Shown: positions 1 to 49,110 of the stretch, piece after piece | Layout of the letters: the number at the start of each line of letters is the position of its first letter | Position numbering within the stretch: the first letter of the stretch is position 1 | Virus record (IMG/VR): IMGVR_UViG_3300008267_000025 | Coordinates: 1-64,000 of that record | Length of the DNA stretch: 64,000 nucleotides | Strand: one strand, 5' to 3' | Source: a virus | Notes under the pieces: model-generated | The model's input: only the letters and a program-made list of their open reading frames with translations | The model's database searches: none | Told to the model about the DNA's origin: nothing | Made by a program: the position numbers and the translations under genes

Positions 1-119
1 CAGTTTACCCGTGGTAACGGTCATAAAATAGGGTTTTTGAACCTTATGACTTCTGTAATCAAAATCCAATCATTGTCTCACTGGTGGTTGGGCTAAATGT
101 GAGGAAAAAACGGGGAGAT

Positions 120-232
120 AGTCAGTAGAGTACCTTGGTAGGTAAACACAGTAATGGGAAGGATGCCCACGTTAATAAAAACTATTCCGAGCTGTTGAGC
201 TTGGCGAACAGGTTCGAATCCTGTCCTGACTA
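120..232 (+). ncRNA. tRNA-like RNA 1 (no canonical anticodon arm)
   Basis: 5' AGTCAG and 3' ACAGG-TTCGAAT-CCTGT-CCTGACTA; long non-canonical interior. Confidence 0.6.
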
Positions 233-304
233 CTGACAATAACAACTCTGGGGTCAGGGTTTTGTTGGTACCGAAAGGTATGTGTTTTCAACGGTTCGAG
301 TCCG

Positions 305-429
305 AGTCAGGTGGCGGAATTGGTAGACGCTAATAGGGTATGTAACTGGATATAATATACTTTACCTTATTAATACAATCCAGCAGATAGCATCTGAAGT
401 GTATGTGAGTTCAAATCTCACCCTGACTA
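305..429 (+). ncRNA. tRNA-like RNA 2 with pseudoknotted insert
   Basis: AGTCAGG/CCTGACT acceptor, Leu-like D arm TGGCGGAATTGGTAGACGC, T arm GTGAG-TTCAAAT-CTCAC; 125 nt. Confidence 0.75.
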
Positions 430-431
430 CA

Positions 432-654
432 ATAAGTAAGAGGTACTTATAGTGATGGTAACTTGACCTTAACACAAGTTATAGCTGCTGGTTCTTAGGT
501 TTTACAAAAGAACTCATTGGGAATAAGAGAGCAATACCATACTCTCCCCAAGTAATGGTTGACGGGTTTAAATCTGGTAAGACAGTTATTGGTTACTGAA
601 ACAGTGAAGGAAACCAGCTAAAATCTAGTCCTCAAAGTAATCTCATTTGGGGCG
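432..654 (+). ncRNA. unidentified structured RNA spacer
   Basis: stems 432-438/444-450, 459-465/475-481 and long-range 487-493/612-618; no ORF. Confidence 0.5.
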
Positions 655-659
655 AATAT

Positions 660-746
660 AGTCAGGTGGCGGAACTGGTTCGATTCCAGATAGACTGTGG
701 ACAGCGCCGTTGTTGGACATTAGGGGTTCGAATCCCCTCCTGACTA
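660..746 (+). ncRNA. tRNA-like RNA 3
   Basis: same acceptor; T arm AGGGG-TTCGAAT-CCCCT; second T-loop-like hairpin CTGG-TTCGATT-CCAG in the D region. Confidence 0.7.
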
Positions 747-747
747 C

Positions 748-945
748 CGAAGGTTGATAACACCTATAGGAATAAAAGTTATAAGTGTTGGCTTCAATCA
801 CGTATTAGGGAAGTACACTTAAATAAAACAGGCAACGGGGAAAGTGTCGACTCGAGAAACGGCAAGTACCAACGAAACGTGAGACATCAAATCAAACACC
901 TCTACGTGGTGATGTTAGAAACTCAGTAATGAGGCTAAGTTTGAT
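748..945 (+). ncRNA. unidentified structured RNA spacer
   Basis: stems 798-803/877-882, 815-820/842-847, 884-889/910-915; no ORF. Confidence 0.4.
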
Positions 946-950
946 AAAAT

Positions 951-1058
951 AGTCAGGTGGCGGAAATGGTAACGCATACACAGCAAGAGTTCTGCAGACT
1001 CACCCACGAAGAGAGTTGTGTAGTGGTATAAATACAGGTTCGAATCCTGTCCTGGCTA
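951..1058 (+). ncRNA. tRNA-like RNA 4
   Basis: AGTCAGG/CCTGGCT acceptor, D and T arms, extended insert stem TACACAGC/GTTGTGTA. Confidence 0.7.
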
Positions 1059-1073
1059 CTAAAAATAAAAGTT

Positions 1074-1235
1074 ATGAATAAAGAACAAGTATTAGAATTA
1101 CTTAAAATTTTGAACCAAAATGATTGTCTACATTCTGAATGGAAATGGTGGGAAGAAGATGAAAATAATAATTTATTCATTAATGAAGATAATTTATGGG
1201 TTGTAGAATTAATTAATGATATTATAAAAAAATAA
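1074..1235 (+). CDS. hypothetical protein (53 aa)
   Basis: ORF MNKEQVLELLKIL read by hand, below track cutoff. Confidence 0.6.
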   Translation: MNKEQVLELLKILNQNDCLHSEWKWWEEDENNNLFINEDNLWVVELINDIIKK

Positions 1236-1244
1236 ATTGGTTAT

Positions 1245-1369
1245 AGTCAGGTGGCGAAATTGGTAGACGCTAATAGGGTATGTAACTGGATATAATATAC
1301 TTTACCTTATTAATACAATCCAGCAGATAGTATCTGAAGTATATACAGGTTCGAATCCTGTCCTGACTA
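1245..1369 (+). ncRNA. tRNA-like RNA 5 (near-duplicate of RNA 2)
   Basis: insert almost identical to 305-429 but T stem ACAGG/CCTGT. Confidence 0.75.
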
Positions 1370-1393
1370 CAAATAATTAAAAAATAAATAACT

Positions 1394-1591
1394 ATGGGAA
1401 AAAAATTAGTATGGTTTGAAAAATTTACAACAATATGTAAATACACCACAGAAATTAGTGATGAAGAAGCTGAATTATTTAATGAAGATGAACAAAGATT
1501 TTATGATGAAGTGGATTATCAAAGTAATCAAGATTTAGAATGGGATTCCATTGAAGATGAAGAAACATATGATTTTTCGATAGAAGACTAA
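1394..1591 (+). CDS. acidic hypothetical protein
   Basis: ORF track; D/E rich. Confidence 0.65.
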   Translation: MGKKLVWFEKFTTICKYTTEISDEEAELFNEDEQRFYDEVDYQSNQDLEWDSIEDEETYDFSIED

Positions 1592-1654
1592 AAATAAATT
1601 TTGAAATAAGAAAAAGATTATGTATCTTTGTTATAGGAAACATAGAAATATAAT

Positions 1655-1763
1655 AAACAGACGGCGAAATGGTTGACGCATCACACTCTAACAATTTAGG
1701 AAGAAGCTGTTCCGCTAATAATTGTTAACTGTGACAATGTAGGTTCGATTCCTATTCTGACAA
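1655..1763 (+). ncRNA. degenerate tRNA-like RNA 6
   Basis: D arm GGCGAAATGGTTGACGC, T arm GTAGG-TTCGATT-CCTAT, partial acceptor, long insert stem; TATCTTTG promoter box at 1623. Confidence 0.55.
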
Positions 1764-1764
1764 T

Positions 1765-1794
1765 AATTGGGGGTTTATACCCCCAATTTTTTTT
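1765..1794 (+). terminator. intrinsic terminator
   Basis: AATTGGGGGT-TTAT-ACCCCCAATT followed by a T run. Confidence 0.85.
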
Positions 1795-1828
1795 AATGCT
1801 TGATGGTATTTATATATAAAAATATTAT

Positions 1829-2491
1829 ATGAAAACTATCAAACAAATTGAATTCCCTGTTAATCAATACTACCAAGAAGAGCATAAAAAAGTTCAAATA
1901 TATTTACATCATACCGCTGGTAATAGTAATGCTGTAGCAACTTTTAAAGGTTGGGAAAATAATCCTGAAAGAATTGCAACATGTGTTTCAATTGCTGGTA
2001 AACCTGATAAAACAAAATCTTGGGAAGATGGTCAAATTGTTCAAGGATTCTCAAGTAAATTTTGGGCATACCATTTGGGTTTAAAAGAGTCTACATTCAC
2101 TAAATTCAATTTACCGTATAAATCATTAGATAAAATATCGATAGGTATTGAAATTTGTAACTTTGGTCAATTAACCTATAAAGAAGGTAAATATTATACT
2201 TACGTTAACTCACCGATACCTGTTGAAGATGTTATTGAATTAAAAGATAAGTTTAGAGGTTATAAATTTTTCCACGCTTATACTGATGCACAAATAGAAT
2301 CTGTACGTCAATTATTGATTTTATGGAAAGAAAGATATAATATACCTTTAACATACAATGAAGATATTTGGGATGTTTGTCCAAGAGCATTAAAAGGTGA
2401 ATCAGGTGTTTTTACACATAACTCAGTTAGATTTGATAAGATTGATATCACACCACAACCAAAAATGATTGAAATGTTAAAATCATTATAA
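1829..2491 (+). CDS. N-acetylmuramoyl-L-alanine amidase (Amidase_2, endolysin-like)
   Basis: IYLHHTAG, SIGIEICNFG, YTDAQIES, THNSV..DKID motifs. Confidence 0.85.
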   Translation: MKTIKQIEFPVNQYYQEEHKKVQIYLHHTAGNSNAVATFKGWENNPERIATCVSIAGKPDKTKSWEDGQIVQGFSSKFWAYHLGLKESTFTKFNLPYKSLDKISIGIEICNFGQLTYKEGKYYTYVNSPIPVEDVIELKDKFRGYKFFHAYTDAQIESVRQLLILWKERYNIPLTYNEDIWDVCPRALKGESGVFTHNSVRFDKIDITPQPKMIEMLKSL

Positions 2492-5102: not shown

Positions 5103-5780
5103 ATGAAAATATGGCACATATCTGACACACACACTTTTCACAATTTATTAGAGATACCTGAAAATATTGATATGGTTATTCACAGTGGTGATGCTACCAA
5201 TCCAAAAGAACCTTATTCTAATAAAGTTGAAATGGAAAACTTTATTTCTTGGTTTAGTCAATTACCCATCAAATATAAAGTATTTGTGGCTGGTAACCAC
5301 GATGTTTCAATTGAAAAGAAATTAATAACACAATTAGATTTTAATTCAAAAGGAATAATTTATTTAGAGAATAGTTTTATCGAAATCGAAGGACTTAAAA
5401 TATGGGGTTCTCCTATTACACCAACATTCGGTATTGGATGGGCATTTAATAAAAACCGAGCTAAAACTCACGAAGTTTGGAAACAAATTCCTGATGATAC
5501 AGATATCGTTGTTGTTCACGGACCACCAAAAGGTATGTTAGATTTATCATATAATAGAGAAAATGAACTAGAGCTTTGCGGTGATAATTCTTTGACGAAA
5601 AGAATGTTAGACTTAAAACCAAAATTATGTTTATTTGGTCACATTCATAATTTTAAAGATATCATAAATGCTGGTACCAAAAAGTTATCTATTATGGATA
5701 CAATATTCAGTAATGGTAGTGTGGTTACTGATGGTAAGTTTGGTAAATTAAGTAGTAACGGAAATATTTTTGATTTATAA
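5103..5780 (+). CDS. calcineurin-like metallophosphoesterase
   Basis: SDTH, HSGD, AGNHD, HGPP, FGHIH. Confidence 0.9.
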   Translation: MKIWHISDTHTFHNLLEIPENIDMVIHSGDATNPKEPYSNKVEMENFISWFSQLPIKYKVFVAGNHDVSIEKKLITQLDFNSKGIIYLENSFIEIEGLKIWGSPITPTFGIGWAFNKNRAKTHEVWKQIPDDTDIVVVHGPPKGMLDLSYNRENELELCGDNSLTKRMLDLKPKLCLFGHIHNFKDIINAGTKKLSIMDTIFSNGSVVTDGKFGKLSSNGNIFDL

Positions 5781-23622: not shown

Positions 23623-23780
23623 TCAAACCATCACCCCTAATATATCTATCAACAAAAAATATCAGAATCAATATAACCCCAACTATTATACTATATAAAA
23701 TCATATTATAATTATATATTTTATTCTTGGCAATATCAATCTATTTCATTATCTTTGTTAAGGTTCTTTGATATAATATT

Positions 23781-23900
23781 AGTCAGGTGGTGAAATTGGT
23801 AGACGCTGCTGTGGGGCGACACCACTCTATATAAAAACAGCATAAGCTCTTATGATTGTGTACAGATTATAAGGTACAGGTTCGAATCCTGTCCTGACGA
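23781..23900 (+). ncRNA. tRNA-like RNA 7
   Basis: AGTCAGGTGGTGAAATTGGTAGACGC...ACAGGTTCGAATCCTGTCCTGAC; branched insert; TATCTTTG box at 23750. Confidence 0.7.
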
Positions 23901-24064
23901 CTACTATACACAAAGTGTATTAGTGATGGTTGACTTAATTGTCTTGTGGCGATACCTTAATTCGACTTACTCTATCCACGAGATAGAGTTTTTTAATAAA
24001 GTTGACAATATAAAATATATTACGTATCTTTGTTAGAGTTCTTTGAATGATTTAAATATGATAT

Positions 24065-24139
24065 AGCGAGTCGGAGAAATGGTAACTCGTTGGGCTCATA
24101 ACCCAAAGATAAGTGGTTCGATTCCACTACTCGCAACCA
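24065..24139 (+). tRNA. tRNA-Met(CAT), probably initiator
   Basis: anticodon arm TTGGG-CTCATAA-CCCAA, mismatched 1:72 pair, encoded CCA. Confidence 0.9.
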
Positions 24140-24146
24140 AATATAT

Positions 24147-24218
24147 GCTCCCATAGTCTATCGGTTAGGACGCATCCCTTTCACGGATGAGAGACGAGTT
24201 CGATTCTCGTTGGGAGTA
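24147..24218 (+). tRNA. tRNA-Glu(TTC)
   Basis: cloverleaf; CATCC-CTTTCAC-GGATG. Confidence 0.9.
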
Positions 24219-24222
24219 CTTT

Positions 24223-24299
24223 AGTCAGGTAGCACATTGGAGATGCACGGTAAGGCGACCCCTTATGTGGATACGCAGGTTCGAATCCTGTCCTGGCTA
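24223..24299 (+). ncRNA. tRNA-like RNA 8 (tRNA-sized, abnormal anticodon loop)
   Basis: AGTCAGG/CCTGGCT acceptor and shared T arm; loop GCGACCC lacks U33. Confidence 0.65.
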
Positions 24300-48436: not shown

Positions 48437-49110
48437 TTAATTTTAGTCCTGAAACCAAAAAACAATTAATTGACTTATATCATGAAAAAAGTATAGGTTT
48501 AGAAGGTAATATATTAAAATTAATCAATACTGAAAATGATAAAGATTTTTCAAAATACATTAAAAAATGTATTGATAATGATAAATCTAACCGAAGAAAA
48601 AGACTTGATGTAACAAAAAAAATACAAAGTCAGAATAATGAATTGATTTCATTAAATGATGAAAATAAACGTATTCTTGATGAACTACAAGTAAGTCTGA
48701 CTAATACCGAAAATTCTAAAACTCAAATTGAAGAACAAAATAACGAATTATTGTCTTGGAAAGAAAAAAATGAACAAATTCAAAACGAGTTACAAGAAGA
48801 AATGAAGAAATCTGAAATTGCTCGTTCTGAAGCCGAAAACTCTAAAGAAATCGCATTAAATAATTTAGATGTTTTACAGAAAAAAATTCAAACTCAACTA
48901 ATGGGTAAAATAGTTTTAGTAGCGTTAGGGGTTATTGGGTTTGTCGGATTAACAACTACCATATTATATGTTATTTCAATAGTTTTGGGAAAAGAAACTG
49001 AAAATATCGGAACCGCTTGGTTCAATATATGTGGGATTTTATTAACTAACGCTTTTAGTATTGTTGGTACTATTATGGGTGTTAAGTATAGTAGTAACGA
49101 GAAACCATAA
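48433..49110 (+). CDS. coiled-coil protein with two C-terminal TM helices
   Basis: long heptad region then two hydrophobic segments; ATGA overlap with regulator. Confidence 0.8.
   Translation: MINFSPETKKQLIDLYHEKSIGLEGNILKLINTENDKDFSKYIKKCIDNDKSNRRKRLDVTKKIQSQNNELISLNDENKRILDELQVSLTNTENSKTQIEEQNNELLSWKEKNEQIQNELQEEMKKSEIARSEAENSKEIALNNLDVLQKKIQTQLMGKIVLVALGVIGFVGLTTTILYVISIVLGKETENIGTAWFNICGILLTNAFSIVGTIMGVKYSSNEKP

What the first reader, a model, noticed from the sequence alone, without database searches (positions are those of the whole stretch)
120..1763. Family of tRNA-scaffold RNAs with constant ends and swappable structured cargo instead of an anticodon
Seen: six elements here (120, 305, 660, 951, 1245, 1655) and two more at 23781 and 24223 share the acceptor AGTCAGG/CCTG(A/G)CT with discriminator A (imperfect in 120, 1655 and 23781) and a T arm; most have a Leu-like D arm (TGGCGGAATTGGTAGACGC). 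Between the D and T arms sit unrelated, strongly base-paired inserts (total 77-125 nt) with no canonical anticodon loop. T stems differ but stay paired (ACAGG/CCTGT, GTGAG/CTCAC, AGGGG/CCCCT, GTAGG/CCTAT), which argues for selection on structure. Known: E. coli LeuRS relies on A73 and tertiary shape rather than the anticodon, and RNase P, RNase Z and the CCA enzyme recognise the acceptor/T arm. Inference: a phage system that uses a tRNA chassis to process and stabilise diverse RNA effectors, e.g. decoys for anticodon nucleases or ribosome/RelA modulators.
Basis: partly seen in the sequence, partly recalled or inferred. Interest (0 to 1): 0.88.

Follow-up and report, generated by a model that had tools for sequence, protein, structure and literature searches.

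The report
Phage tRNA-shaped RNAs with swappable inserts
This phage carries eight genes for RNAs that keep the upper body of a leucine tRNA but hold other folded RNA where the codon-reading arm should be; they belong to a very large family in uncultured phages whose job is still unknown.

Summary
Observation confirmed. All eight elements exist at the stated places. Five are intact (305, 660, 951, 1245, 24223) and three are imperfect (120, 1655, 23781). They share the acceptor AGTCAGG/CCTG(A/G)CT, discriminator A, a T arm and mostly a tRNA-Leu D arm. None has a canonical anticodon arm. One correction: the inserts at 305 and 1245 are 90% identical, not unrelated.

The family is huge. I collected 353 distinct elements from 272 phage or metagenome stretches. 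They fall into 264 insert clusters, 215 of them singletons. The tRNA core nucleotides stay fixed: U8 95%, A14 91%, U48 86%, A73 93% of cluster representatives.

The insert of element 951 recurs in 16 other phage sequences with compensatory changes in both of its helices, so inserts are selected RNA domains. Apparent "intron-tRNA" calls are as frequent with shuffled inserts, so splicing to an ordinary tRNA is not supported.

Phage T5 RNA1 and RNA2, annotated as tRNA-like stable RNAs of unknown function, have the same build. No Rfam family or paper I could search describes this family.

Expression could not be tested, and the function of the inserts is unknown.

This scan has flagged the same family before on other DNA (28 findings in at least 27 genomes).

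A covariation-supported HDV-like ribozyme lies at 883-946, just upstream of element 951.

The parts
120..232 (+). Element 1: divergent chassis RNA (acceptor AGTCAGT/CCTGACT with a 7-66 mismatch, non-Leu D region, T arm ACAGG/CCTGT, discriminator A)
   Evidence: Sequence; pattern scan; model R1 25.5 bits
233..304 (+). Spacer RNA sp1, conserved in another phage contig (L080, 93%); ends in a T-loop-like CGGTTCGAGTCCG
   Evidence: blastn against fetched loci
305..429 (+). Element 2: intact chassis with variant T arm GTGAG/CTCAC; its 74-nt insert is the same module as in element 5
430..659 (+). Spacer RNA sp2 (230 nt), 95% identical in contig L097, where the flanking chassis carry unrelated inserts
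660..746 (+). Element 3: intact chassis, T arm AGGGG/CCCCT, with an extra T-loop hairpin CTGGTTCGATTCCAG inserted in the D loop
   Evidence: 51.5 bits
747..882 (+). Spacer RNA sp3: a conserved non-coding RNA that starts at the chassis 3' end and ends at the predicted ribozyme cleavage site (conserved 3' end AACGAAR)
883..946 (+). Minimal HDV-like (theta-like) self-cleaving ribozyme; cleavage predicted 5' of G883; it ends 4 nt before element 4
   Evidence: Rfam RF02682 30.1 bits, below the gathering score of 44; 4 homologues; all 12 counted P1/P2/P3 pairs form in all four, 5 of them with compensatory changes
951..1058 (+). Element 4: intact chassis (3' strand CCTGGCT gives a U3-G70 wobble pair); its insert belongs to a family found in 16 other viral sequences
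1074..1235 (+). Micro-ORF (53 aa, acidic) between elements 4 and 5
1245..1369 (+). Element 5: intact chassis with consensus T arm and the same insert as element 2
   Evidence: (Rfam tRNA 37.8 bits)
1394..1591 (+). Micro-ORF (65 aa, very acidic) between elements 5 and 6
1623..1630 (+). Bacteroidota-type -7 promoter box TATCTTTG (TAnnTTTG) upstream of element 6
   Evidence: the consensus is from my own knowledge of Bacteroides promoters
1655..1763 (+). Element 6: decayed member with only 4 acceptor pairs left, T arm GTAGG/CCTAT and a long rod-like insert
1765..1795 (+). Intrinsic terminator that closes the array
23750..23757 (+). TATCTTTG promoter box 24 nt upstream of element 7
23781..23900 (+). 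Element 7: chassis with a GAC duplication in the 3' acceptor strand; its insert has a homologue in L043 (82%)
23901..23969 (+). Trailer RNA sp7, partly conserved in L061 (80%)
23970..23994 (+). Hairpin CTCTATC-cacga-GATAGAG followed by TTTTTT: terminator of the element 7 unit
   Evidence: Read from the sequence
24065..24219 (+). Genuine tRNA-Met and tRNA-Glu, probably co-transcribed with element 8; a TATCTTTG box lies at 24025
24223..24299 (+). Element 8: 77-nt chassis starting 4 nt after tRNA-Glu; its anticodon-arm equivalent has a 5-nt loop
   Evidence: 55.7 bits

Best explanation
These are genes for tRNA-Leu-derived 'chassis' RNAs.

Inferred pathway:
1. They are transcribed inside the phage's tRNA and small-RNA operons from Bacteroidota-type promoters.
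2. The host's tRNA machinery cuts them out. RNase P would cut at A1. The 3' end would be trimmed and completed to CCA, since C74 is encoded and C75/A76 usually are not.
3. They fold into the tRNA L-shape.

Shown: the acceptor stem, T arm, D arm and the core contacts (U8-A14, A15-U48, G18G19 with the T loop) are kept. The anticodon arm and variable arm, and sometimes the D loop, are replaced by an unrelated folded domain. That domain is itself under selection, at least for element 951.

The chassis keeps every nucleotide that E. coli LeuRS needs, so leucine charging is plausible but untested.

At the DNA level, the two constant blocks act as junctions where inserts and the spacer RNAs between elements are exchanged among phages.

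What the inserts bind is unknown. My best guess is proteins that dock on tRNA bodies, such as tRNA-directed defence nucleases or LeuRS, rather than base-pairing targets.
For: Anatomy and membership:
- All eight elements are found by pattern scan and by my covariance model.
- The family comprises 353 distinct elements in 264 insert clusters.

RNA-level selection on the chassis:
- In the 5'-anchored sample, T stems vary almost only by compensatory pairs: GATGG/CCATC, GTAGG/CCTAC, ACGGG/CCCGT, ACTGG/CCAGT, GCTGG/CCAGC, ACAAG/CTTGT.
- The unpaired core nucleotides U8, A14, U48 and A73 are kept in 86-95% of the 264 cluster representatives.

Selection on the insert:
- In 17 sequences, the two insert helices show changes on both sides in 6 of 8 and 3 of 4 pairs.
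- 96.9% of cells are paired, and 0 of 500 shuffles reach that value.

tRNA context:
- Element 8 starts 4 nt after tRNA-Glu.
- In related loci the elements sit among genuine tRNAs.
- The genuine tRNAs of this phage share the same C74, non-CCA trailers.

Leucine identity set: A73, A15-U48, G18G19 and A20a are required, while the anticodon arm and variable arm are dispensable for charging (PMC9976931).

Module exchange: between the window and L097, sp2 is 95% identical while the inserts on either side are 31% and 48% identical.

Precedent for real, stable RNAs of this build: T5 RNA1 has a Leu-like D arm (GCCGGAAUUGGUAGACGG), a T arm and an acceptor around a large insert. T5 RNA2 has the T arm GCAGGUUCGAAUCCUGU and a T-loop hairpin in its insert.

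The chassis can carry a working anticodon arm: two members are canonical tRNA-Lys(UUU), and L040:13031-13101 scores 66.3 bits on the Rfam tRNA model.
Against: - There are no RNA data.
- As a class, the inserts are not more stable than shuffled sequence: median z -0.38.
- Covariation was shown for one insert family only.
- The near-invariant acceptor sequence exceeds what RNase P, RNase Z or LeuRS are known to need. It may instead reflect recombination or an unknown sequence-specific reader.
- No partner protein recurs next to the elements.
- The record is only about 26% of the phage genome.
- Three of the eight copies here are damaged.
Confidence: 0.6

Rival explanations
1. The working part is the chassis itself. 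The RNAs are decoys or sponges for something that binds tRNA bodies: anticodon or acceptor nucleases of host defence systems, LeuRS, EF-Tu or RNase P. The altered anticodon arm makes them uncleavable or non-decoding, and its diversity reflects an arms race.
For: - There are many copies per genome: 8 here and 7 in L009.
- Insert diversity is extreme: 215 singleton clusters out of 264.
- The elements lie in an accessory region rich in small ORFs.
- The only two members with a canonical anticodon arm are tRNA-Lys(UUU), the usual target of PrrC, PARIS AriB and RorSlfn5 (PMC13056530).
- No antisense targets were found in the phage genome.
Against: - A pure decoy would not need conserved, covarying inserts.
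- No defence-related partner or trigger was identified.
- Most inserts do not resemble any anticodon stem-loop.
- There is no direct test.
Confidence: 0.17
2. They are processing punctuation. The tRNA shape only recruits RNase P and 3' processing so that the flanking spacer RNAs and micro-ORF mRNAs are released, as tRNAs do in mitochondrial transcripts. The inserts are passengers.
For: - The elements alternate with conserved spacer RNAs (sp1, sp2, sp3, sp7), micro-ORFs and a ribozyme.
- sp3 starts exactly at a chassis 3' end in all four homologous loci.
Against: - Ordinary tRNAs or bare hairpins would serve this purpose.
- It does not explain the conserved, covarying insert of the 951 family.
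- It does not explain retention of the leucine-type D arm and the A15-U48 pair.
Confidence: 0.1
3. They are mainly DNA-level elements. The constant 25-26-bp blocks are recombination or homing junctions for cassette exchange, and the RNA fold is a relic of the tRNA gene in which the system arose.
For: - Mosaic structure, with breakpoints at the constant blocks.
- The acceptor sequence is invariant, while genuine tRNA-Leu genes in the same contigs vary freely.
- T5orf172/GIY-YIG-like genes lie nearby in 9 loci.
- T4 and T5 tRNA regions hold homing endonucleases.
Against: - T-stem changes are compensatory, and unpaired tertiary nucleotides are conserved. Both point to selection on the RNA.
- No endonuclease is consistently linked to the elements.
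Confidence: 0.08
4. They are intron-containing tRNAs, like the 'enigmatic introns' reported for Lak megaphage tRNAs, or else decaying tRNA pseudogenes.
For: - With introns allowed, ARAGORN of 353 as tRNAs.
- Devoto et al. 2019 interpreted oversized tRNA genes of a Bacteroidota phage as intron-bearing (PMC6784885).
- Three of the eight copies here are damaged.
Against: - With shuffled inserts ARAGORN still of 353 (53 versus 59 without introns), and the anticodons are scattered over all amino acids. The calls therefore come from the chassis alone.
- No group I or other intron family was found by Rfam.
- Conservation and covariation of an insert across phages argue against decay.
Confidence: 0.05

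Closest known systems
Phage T5 RNA1 (144 nt) and RNA2 (125 nt), annotated 'tRNA-like stable RNA with unknown functions' (AY543070)
   Same: - They lie in the phage tRNA cluster among tRNAs, other stable RNAs, micro-ORFs and homing endonucleases.
- RNA1 has an acceptor stem, a Leu-type D arm (GGAAUUGGUAGAC) and a T arm around a two-armed insert.
- RNA2 has the T arm GCAGGUUCGAAUCCUGU, identical to a common variant here, and a T-loop hairpin in its insert like element 3.
   Different: - The acceptor sequences differ.
- There is no BLAST-level homology of the inserts.
- T5 has two or three such RNAs, not a family with one invariant acceptor spread over hundreds of phages.
- The T5 RNAs were seen as stable RNAs in cells; these were not.
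Phage T4 RNA C (species 1, 139 nt) in the T4 tRNA cluster
   Same: It is a stable RNA of unknown function next to tRNA genes. It has a canonical T arm (CCGGGUUCGAAUCCCGG) and paired ends around a large structured insert. It is confirmed as a late RNA by Northern blot (PMC9697503).
   Different: Its acceptor is imperfect, it has no Leu-type D arm, and its sequences are unrelated.
'Enigmatic introns' in tRNAs of Lak megaphages of Prevotella (Devoto et al. 2019, PMC6784885)
   Same: Oversized tRNA-like genes in phages of Bacteroidota. The inserts are highly conserved where shared, and one insert is itself tRNA-like.
   Different: The Lak cases were read as introns in otherwise decoding tRNAs (Tyr, Thr). 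Here, removing the insert leaves no anticodon arm, and intron calls equal the shuffled control. I did not examine the Lak sequences.
tmRNA
   Same: A tRNA-like top half (acceptor and T arm, cut by RNase P, charged) with the anticodon arm replaced by a large functional domain.
   Different: There is no G3-U70 alanine identity (this chassis has U3-A70), no tag ORF, no tmRNA call by ARAGORN or Rfam, and the full D arm is retained.
Theta ribozymes: minimal HDV-like ribozymes next to phage tRNAs (Kienbeck et al. 2024, PMC10879173)
   Same: The ribozyme at 883-946 is a minimal HDV-like fold in a phage tRNA region.
   Different: Its cleavage site abuts the 3' end of the spacer RNA sp3, not a tRNA 3' end, and the ribozyme sits 4-10 nt upstream of a chassis RNA. 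It scores below the gathering threshold of Rfam RF02682 (HDV-F-prausnitzii).
Engineered 'tRNA scaffold' for recombinant RNA (Ponchon and Dardel), and MHV68 tRNA-miRNA (TMER) genes (both from my own knowledge)
   Same: Both use a tRNA body to have an unrelated RNA processed and stabilised by tRNA enzymes. The engineered scaffold places its cargo in the anticodon arm exactly as here.
   Different: One is man-made. In TMERs the cargo is appended 3' of the tRNA-like part and released by RNase Z.

Membership tests
Canonical decoding tRNA (Rfam RF00005) | 7-bp acceptor stem plus discriminator; T arm with a T-loop | tested here: met
   Met in five of eight elements. The acceptor is imperfect in 120, 1655 and 23781.
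Canonical decoding tRNA (Rfam RF00005) | Anticodon arm: 5-bp stem and 7-nt loop with U33 and R37 | tested here: not met
   None of the eight has one. Family-wide, 2 of 353 do. ARAGORN real elements against 53 with shuffled inserts.
Canonical decoding tRNA (Rfam RF00005) | Score at or above the Rfam gathering threshold | tested here: inconclusive
   Three of eight pass (37.8, 31.0 and 29.7 bits against 29), each through a large insertion.
tRNA-Leu body (E. coli LeuRS identity set) | A73, U8-A14, A15-U48, G18G19 and A20a in the D loop, intact T loop; anticodon and variable arms not required | tested here: met
   The consensus TGGCGGAATTGGTAGACGC equals the E. coli tRNA-Leu D arm as I recall it (own knowledge, not compared with a tool). 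Among 264 cluster representatives: U8 251, A14 240, U48 228, A73 246. The criteria come from PMC9976931. Elements 120 and 24223 lack the Leu-type D arm.
tRNA-Leu body (E. coli LeuRS identity set) | Actual aminoacylation with leucine | not testable with these tools
   Needs an acid-gel or charging assay.
Phage tRNA-like stable RNAs (T5 RNA1/RNA2 type) | Encoded in a phage tRNA cluster; acceptor and T arm (with or without a Leu-like D arm) enclosing an oversized insert | tested here: met
Phage tRNA-like stable RNAs (T5 RNA1/RNA2 type) | Detected as a discrete, stable, processed RNA in infected cells | not testable with these tools
The metagenome scan for encoded ACCA gave only internal genomic copies.
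Phage tRNA-like stable RNAs (T5 RNA1/RNA2 type) | Sequence homology to T5 or T4 members | tested here: inconclusive
   Only the T-arm and D-arm motifs are shared. There is no blastn hit to cultured phages except uncultured MW202828.
tmRNA | G3-U70 alanine identity pair, tag-peptide ORF, pseudoknots | tested here: not met
   The chassis has U3-A70. ARAGORN and Rfam give no tmRNA call in the window.
Intron-containing tRNA | Exons that rebuild an anticodon arm; a recognisable intron class | tested here: not met
   Intron-mode calls are 261 real against 244 with shuffled inserts. Rfam finds no intron family.
HDV-like / theta ribozyme (for 883-946 only) | Nested double pseudoknot: P1 with a G-U pair at the cleavage site, P2, P3 with a conserved L3, and the GGCUAAG-type J4/2 | tested here: met
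   Of the 12 pairs counted, all form in all 4 homologues, and 5 have compensatory changes, including the P2 pseudoknot.
HDV-like / theta ribozyme (for 883-946 only) | Rfam gathering score; self-cleavage | tested here: not met
   RF02682 scores 30.1 bits against 44. Cleavage itself cannot be tested here.

The most novel reading that the evidence does not exclude
Phages of freshwater Bacteroidota and others maintain a recombination-shuffled library of RNA effectors displayed on one leucine-tRNA body. The body gives tRNA-type processing, stability and docking (possibly leucine charging). Each insert is a protein-binding domain aimed at a different host factor, for instance tRNA-directed immune nucleases. 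This would be an RNA-based counterpart of anti-defence protein arsenals.
Probability: 0.17. Interest if true: 0.88.

Novelty: new variant of a known kind. Interest (0 to 1): 0.72.

Why it matters
If these RNAs are made and matured as inferred, phages have a natural version of the laboratory 'tRNA scaffold': one fixed body that lets host tRNA enzymes process and stabilise hundreds of different small structured RNAs. That would give a first handle on the function of the tRNA-like stable RNAs of T4 and T5. Their function is still listed as unknown in the phage records and in a 2022 T4 transcriptome paper. It would also reinterpret the 'tRNA introns' reported in Bacteroidota megaphages. It would add several hundred uncharacterised RNA domains, some probably aimed at host factors. 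Finally, it shows that tRNA finders both miss these genes and mislabel them with arbitrary anticodons.

Tried and rejected
- **Metagenome scan for chassis ends with encoded ACCA:** 88 hits, all internal to contigs. This gives no RNA-end signal and only shows that a minority encode CCA.
- **Antisense role:** the longest complementary matches of each insert and spacer to the 77.7-kb record are no better than for shuffled sequence. Host targets could not be tested.
- **Known RNA families inside the inserts:** Rfam finds only tRNA and one tmRNA in 18 related loci, and nothing but the sub-threshold HDV hit in window 1-2000.
- **Partner proteins:** clustering ORFs from 120 loci gave DUF932 (14 loci), large terminase (13), metallophosphoesterase (10) and T5orf172 (9). 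None is general.
- **tRNA enzymes in this record:** no CCA-adding enzyme, RtcB or RNA ligase. The record is only about 26% complete, so this says little.
- **Thermodynamic stability of the inserts:** not distinguishable from shuffles.
- **Cultured phage carrying the AGTCAGG chassis:** none in the phage collection. The Gamaleyavirus 'tRNA-OTHER' hit is a different molecule.
- **Ninth element:** the candidate at 48628-48703 (20.8 bits) lies inside an ORF and has no T arm, so I treat it as chance.
- **Host tRNA or attachment site:** the 3' block occurs in 18 genome contigs, all from metagenome bins, about half of them labelled Bacteroidota and none from an isolate.
Full report
**1. What is in the window**

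The window is the first 64 kb of a 77.7-kb IMG/VR virus record. The record has 28% G+C and is linear, and CheckV estimates it at about 26% complete.

- Intact: 305-429, 660-746, 951-1058, 1245-1369 and 24223-24299. They have the acceptor AGTCAGG/CCTG(A/G)CT, discriminator A and a T arm. All except 24223 have a D arm that equals or nearly equals the bacterial tRNA-Leu D arm, TGGCGGAATTGGTAGACGC.
- 120-232 has a 7-66 mismatch and a different D region.
- 1655-1763 keeps only four acceptor pairs.
- 23781-23900 has a GAC duplication in its 3' acceptor strand.

ARAGORN finds three ordinary tRNAs (Met, Glu, Arg) and calls only 660-748, as Ser-aga. The Rfam tRNA model passes its threshold for 1245, 660 and 1658, each through a large insertion, and no other Rfam family matches.

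I built a covariance model from 30 short family members, using only the acceptor, D and T helices. It recovers all eight elements at 25-56 bits. The three true tRNAs score 26-28 bits. One weak extra hit inside an ORF has no T arm.

The whole elements are 90% identical although their T arms differ.

**2. The family**

From all stretches fetched (272, 2.5 Mb) I extracted 353 distinct elements of 56-196 nt. Their inserts fall into 264 clusters, of which 215 are singletons.

In the 5'-anchored sample, which does not pre-select the 3' half:
- The T arm is ACAGG-TTCGAAT-CCTGT in about three quarters of elements, and otherwise varies almost only by compensatory pairs.
- The discriminator is A in 74 of 88.
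- Position 74 is nearly always C.
- CCA is encoded in 2 of 88.

The genuine tRNAs of this phage and of related contigs have the same 'A73-C74, then not CA' ends.

Unpaired core nucleotides are conserved among the 264 cluster representatives: U8 in 251, A14 in 240, the nucleotide before the T stem (U48) in 228, and A73 in 246. U48 lies at the boundary with the insert and belongs to no helix. Its conservation fits the A15-U48 tertiary pair, and so an L-shaped fold selected at the RNA level.

Genuine tRNA-Leu genes in the same contigs have other, freely varying acceptor stems. The chassis is therefore a separate lineage whose acceptor sequence is unusually fixed.

In 185,579 species-representative genomes the 3' block occurs in only 18 contigs. 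All are from metagenome bins, and about half are labelled Bacteroidota. It is therefore not a host tRNA.

The motif TATCTTTGTTA fits the Bacteroides -7 box TAnnTTTG (consensus from my own knowledge). It lies upstream of element 6, element 7, the tRNA-Met cluster and other intergenic sites. This agrees with a Bacteroidota host.

**3. Are the inserts functional RNA?**

The insert of element 951 recurs in 16 further distinct viral sequences. On that alignment:
- The two insert helices have changes on both sides in 6 of 8 and 3 of 4 pairs.
- The chassis helices hardly vary.
- 96.9% of cells are paired, 0 of 500 shuffles reach the observed values, and slid controls drop to about 30-38% paired.

So at least this insert is a conserved, structured domain.

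Two relatives (L256, L257) carry the same insert plus an extra hairpin in the D loop. The chassis therefore accepts modules at two sites.

An extra T-loop hairpin occurs in 8 of 264 insert clusters, against 0.76 expected from shuffles. Element 660 is one of them.

As a class, however, the inserts do not fold more stably than shuffled sequence: median z is -0.38. Structure is therefore shown for one family, not for all.

**4. Not introns, not hidden tRNAs**

ARAGORN of 353 elements as tRNAs of scattered identity. With the inserts shuffled it.

With introns allowed it, and 244 with shuffled inserts. The calls come from the perfect chassis, not from any anticodon arm.

Only two elements have a strict 5-bp stem and 7-nt loop with U33 and R37. 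Both are tRNA-Lys(UUU), and one scores 66.3 bits on the Rfam tRNA model. The chassis can thus serve as a real tRNA, but almost never does.

**5. Modular exchange**

The spacers between elements are conserved elsewhere too:
- sp1 (233-304) is 93% identical in L080.
- sp2 (430-659) is 95% identical in L097.
- sp3 (747-882) and sp7 have partial matches.

In the alignment of window 305-746 with L097, the 5' constant block is 100% identical and sp2 is 95% identical. The inserts on either side are 31% and 48% identical. Breakpoints therefore lie at the constant blocks.

**6. A ribozyme in the array**

Positions 883-946 match the HDV-like family RF02682 at 30.1 bits, below its threshold of 44. Read directly, the sequence forms:
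- P1, GACAUC/GAUGUU, with the G-U pair at the cleavage site.
- The P2 pseudoknot, AUCAAA/UUUGAU.
- P3, ACC/GGU, with L3 UCUACGU.
- A GNRA-capped P4.
- GGCUAAG.

Three homologues (L037, L063, L097) have compensatory P1, P2 and P3. All 12 counted pairs form in all four sequences, and 5 have changes on both sides. This is a small sample.

In all four loci the ribozyme follows a conserved RNA (sp3) that begins right at the 3' end of a chassis element. In three of the four it ends 4-10 nt before the next chassis.

This resembles the theta ribozymes described next to phage tRNAs (PMC10879173). The difference is that here the cleavage site abuts sp3, not a tRNA.

**7. Comparison with known things**

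The T5 record annotates RNA1 and RNA2 as 'tRNA-like stable RNA with unknown functions', in a tRNA region that also holds other stable RNAs, micro-ORFs and homing endonucleases.
- Folded, RNA1 shows an acceptor stem, a Leu-type D arm, a T arm and a two-armed insert.
- RNA2 has the T arm GCAGGUUCGAAUCCUGU and a T-loop hairpin in its insert.

T4 RNA C has a canonical T arm and paired ends. It is a confirmed late RNA of unknown function (PMC9697503).

Lak megaphages of Prevotella were reported to have tRNAs with 'enigmatic introns' (PMC6784885).

None of the papers I could search describes this constant-acceptor family. This scan has flagged the family before, in 28 findings on at least 27 other genomes.

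**8. Mechanism**

Shown:
- The anatomy.
- Conservation of the tRNA core.
- Covariation in one insert family.
- Location among tRNAs.
- Mosaic exchange.

Inferred:
- Transcription from the TAnnTTTG promoters. Element 7 has its own promoter box and a terminator at 23970-23994.
- RNase P cleavage at A1, 3' trimming and CCA completion.
- An L-shaped stable RNA.

Plausible but untested: charging by LeuRS. E. coli LeuRS needs A73, A15-U48, G18G19, A20a and the D/T-loop contacts, but neither the anticodon arm nor the variable arm (PMC9976931).

Unknown: what the inserts do.
- I found no antisense targets in the phage record.
- I found no recurring partner gene.
- I found no tRNA-repair or CCA-adding enzymes in the 26% of the genome that is held.

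The fixed acceptor sequence is not explained by the known requirements of RNase P, RNase Z or LeuRS. Frequent recombination between copies, or an unidentified sequence-specific reader, could account for it.

**9. Verdict**

The proposed roles are untested.

The kind is known from T5 and T4, but this widespread, one-acceptor, many-insert family appears undescribed.

Noticed in passing
window 883-946 (with 747-882): A minimal HDV-like ribozyme supported by compensatory changes in three homologues. It would cut off the 3' end of a conserved spacer RNA (sp3) that starts at a chassis 3' end, and it sits 4 nt before the next chassis.
   Followed up: yes
window 430-659; L097:9348-9576: A 230-nt ORF-free spacer between two chassis elements is 95% identical in another phage contig, while the neighbouring inserts are unrelated. 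Its own fold is not significant (z -0.64).
   Followed up: partly
window 1623, 8024, 18502, 23750, 24025 (+ strand); genome 71975 (- strand): A recurring TATCTTTGTTA motif in intergenic DNA fits the Bacteroidota -7 promoter box TAnnTTTG and points to a Bacteroidota host.
   Followed up: partly
window 1074-1235 and 1394-1591: Two very acidic micro-ORFs (53 and 65 aa) lie between chassis elements, as micro-ORFs do in the T5 tRNA region. Only the start region of the first has matches in my loci.
   Followed up: no
L040:13031-13101 (- strand); L200:4544-4614 (- strand): Two members of the same AGTCAGG chassis carry a fully canonical anticodon arm with anticodon UUU (Lys). tRNA-Lys(UUU) is the usual target of anticodon nucleases.
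   Followed up: partly
L140, L143, L148 (+ strand) and L217 (- strand), just after the T arm: In several relatives the 3' acceptor strand is interrupted by a 50-80-nt insertion. It has a hairpin with a loop of the G/A-TAGAAAT type. In L143 and L217 it also has a TAnnTTTG-like box just before the resumed GACTAC.
   Followed up: no
L256:3151-3288 (- strand); L257:168-294 (+ strand): The element-951 insert family also occurs on chassis that carry an additional hairpin inserted in the D loop, so modules can be added at two sites.
   Followed up: partly
window 5103-5780: A calcineurin-like metallophosphoesterase gene lies near the array, and a homologue lies near the elements in 10 of 120 related loci. 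Some enzymes of this fold heal 2',3'-cyclic phosphate RNA ends (my own knowledge).
   Followed up: no
L274:355-427 (Escherichia phage UE-S5b, Gamaleyavirus): A 73-nt gene annotated 'tRNA-OTHER' has a similar T arm but a different acceptor. It is a possible culturable example of a non-decoding phage tRNA-like RNA.
   Followed up: no
window 48628-48703: AGTCAGA...TCTGACTA ends inside a protein-coding ORF give a weak model hit (20.8 bits) but no T arm. This is probably chance.
   Followed up: yes
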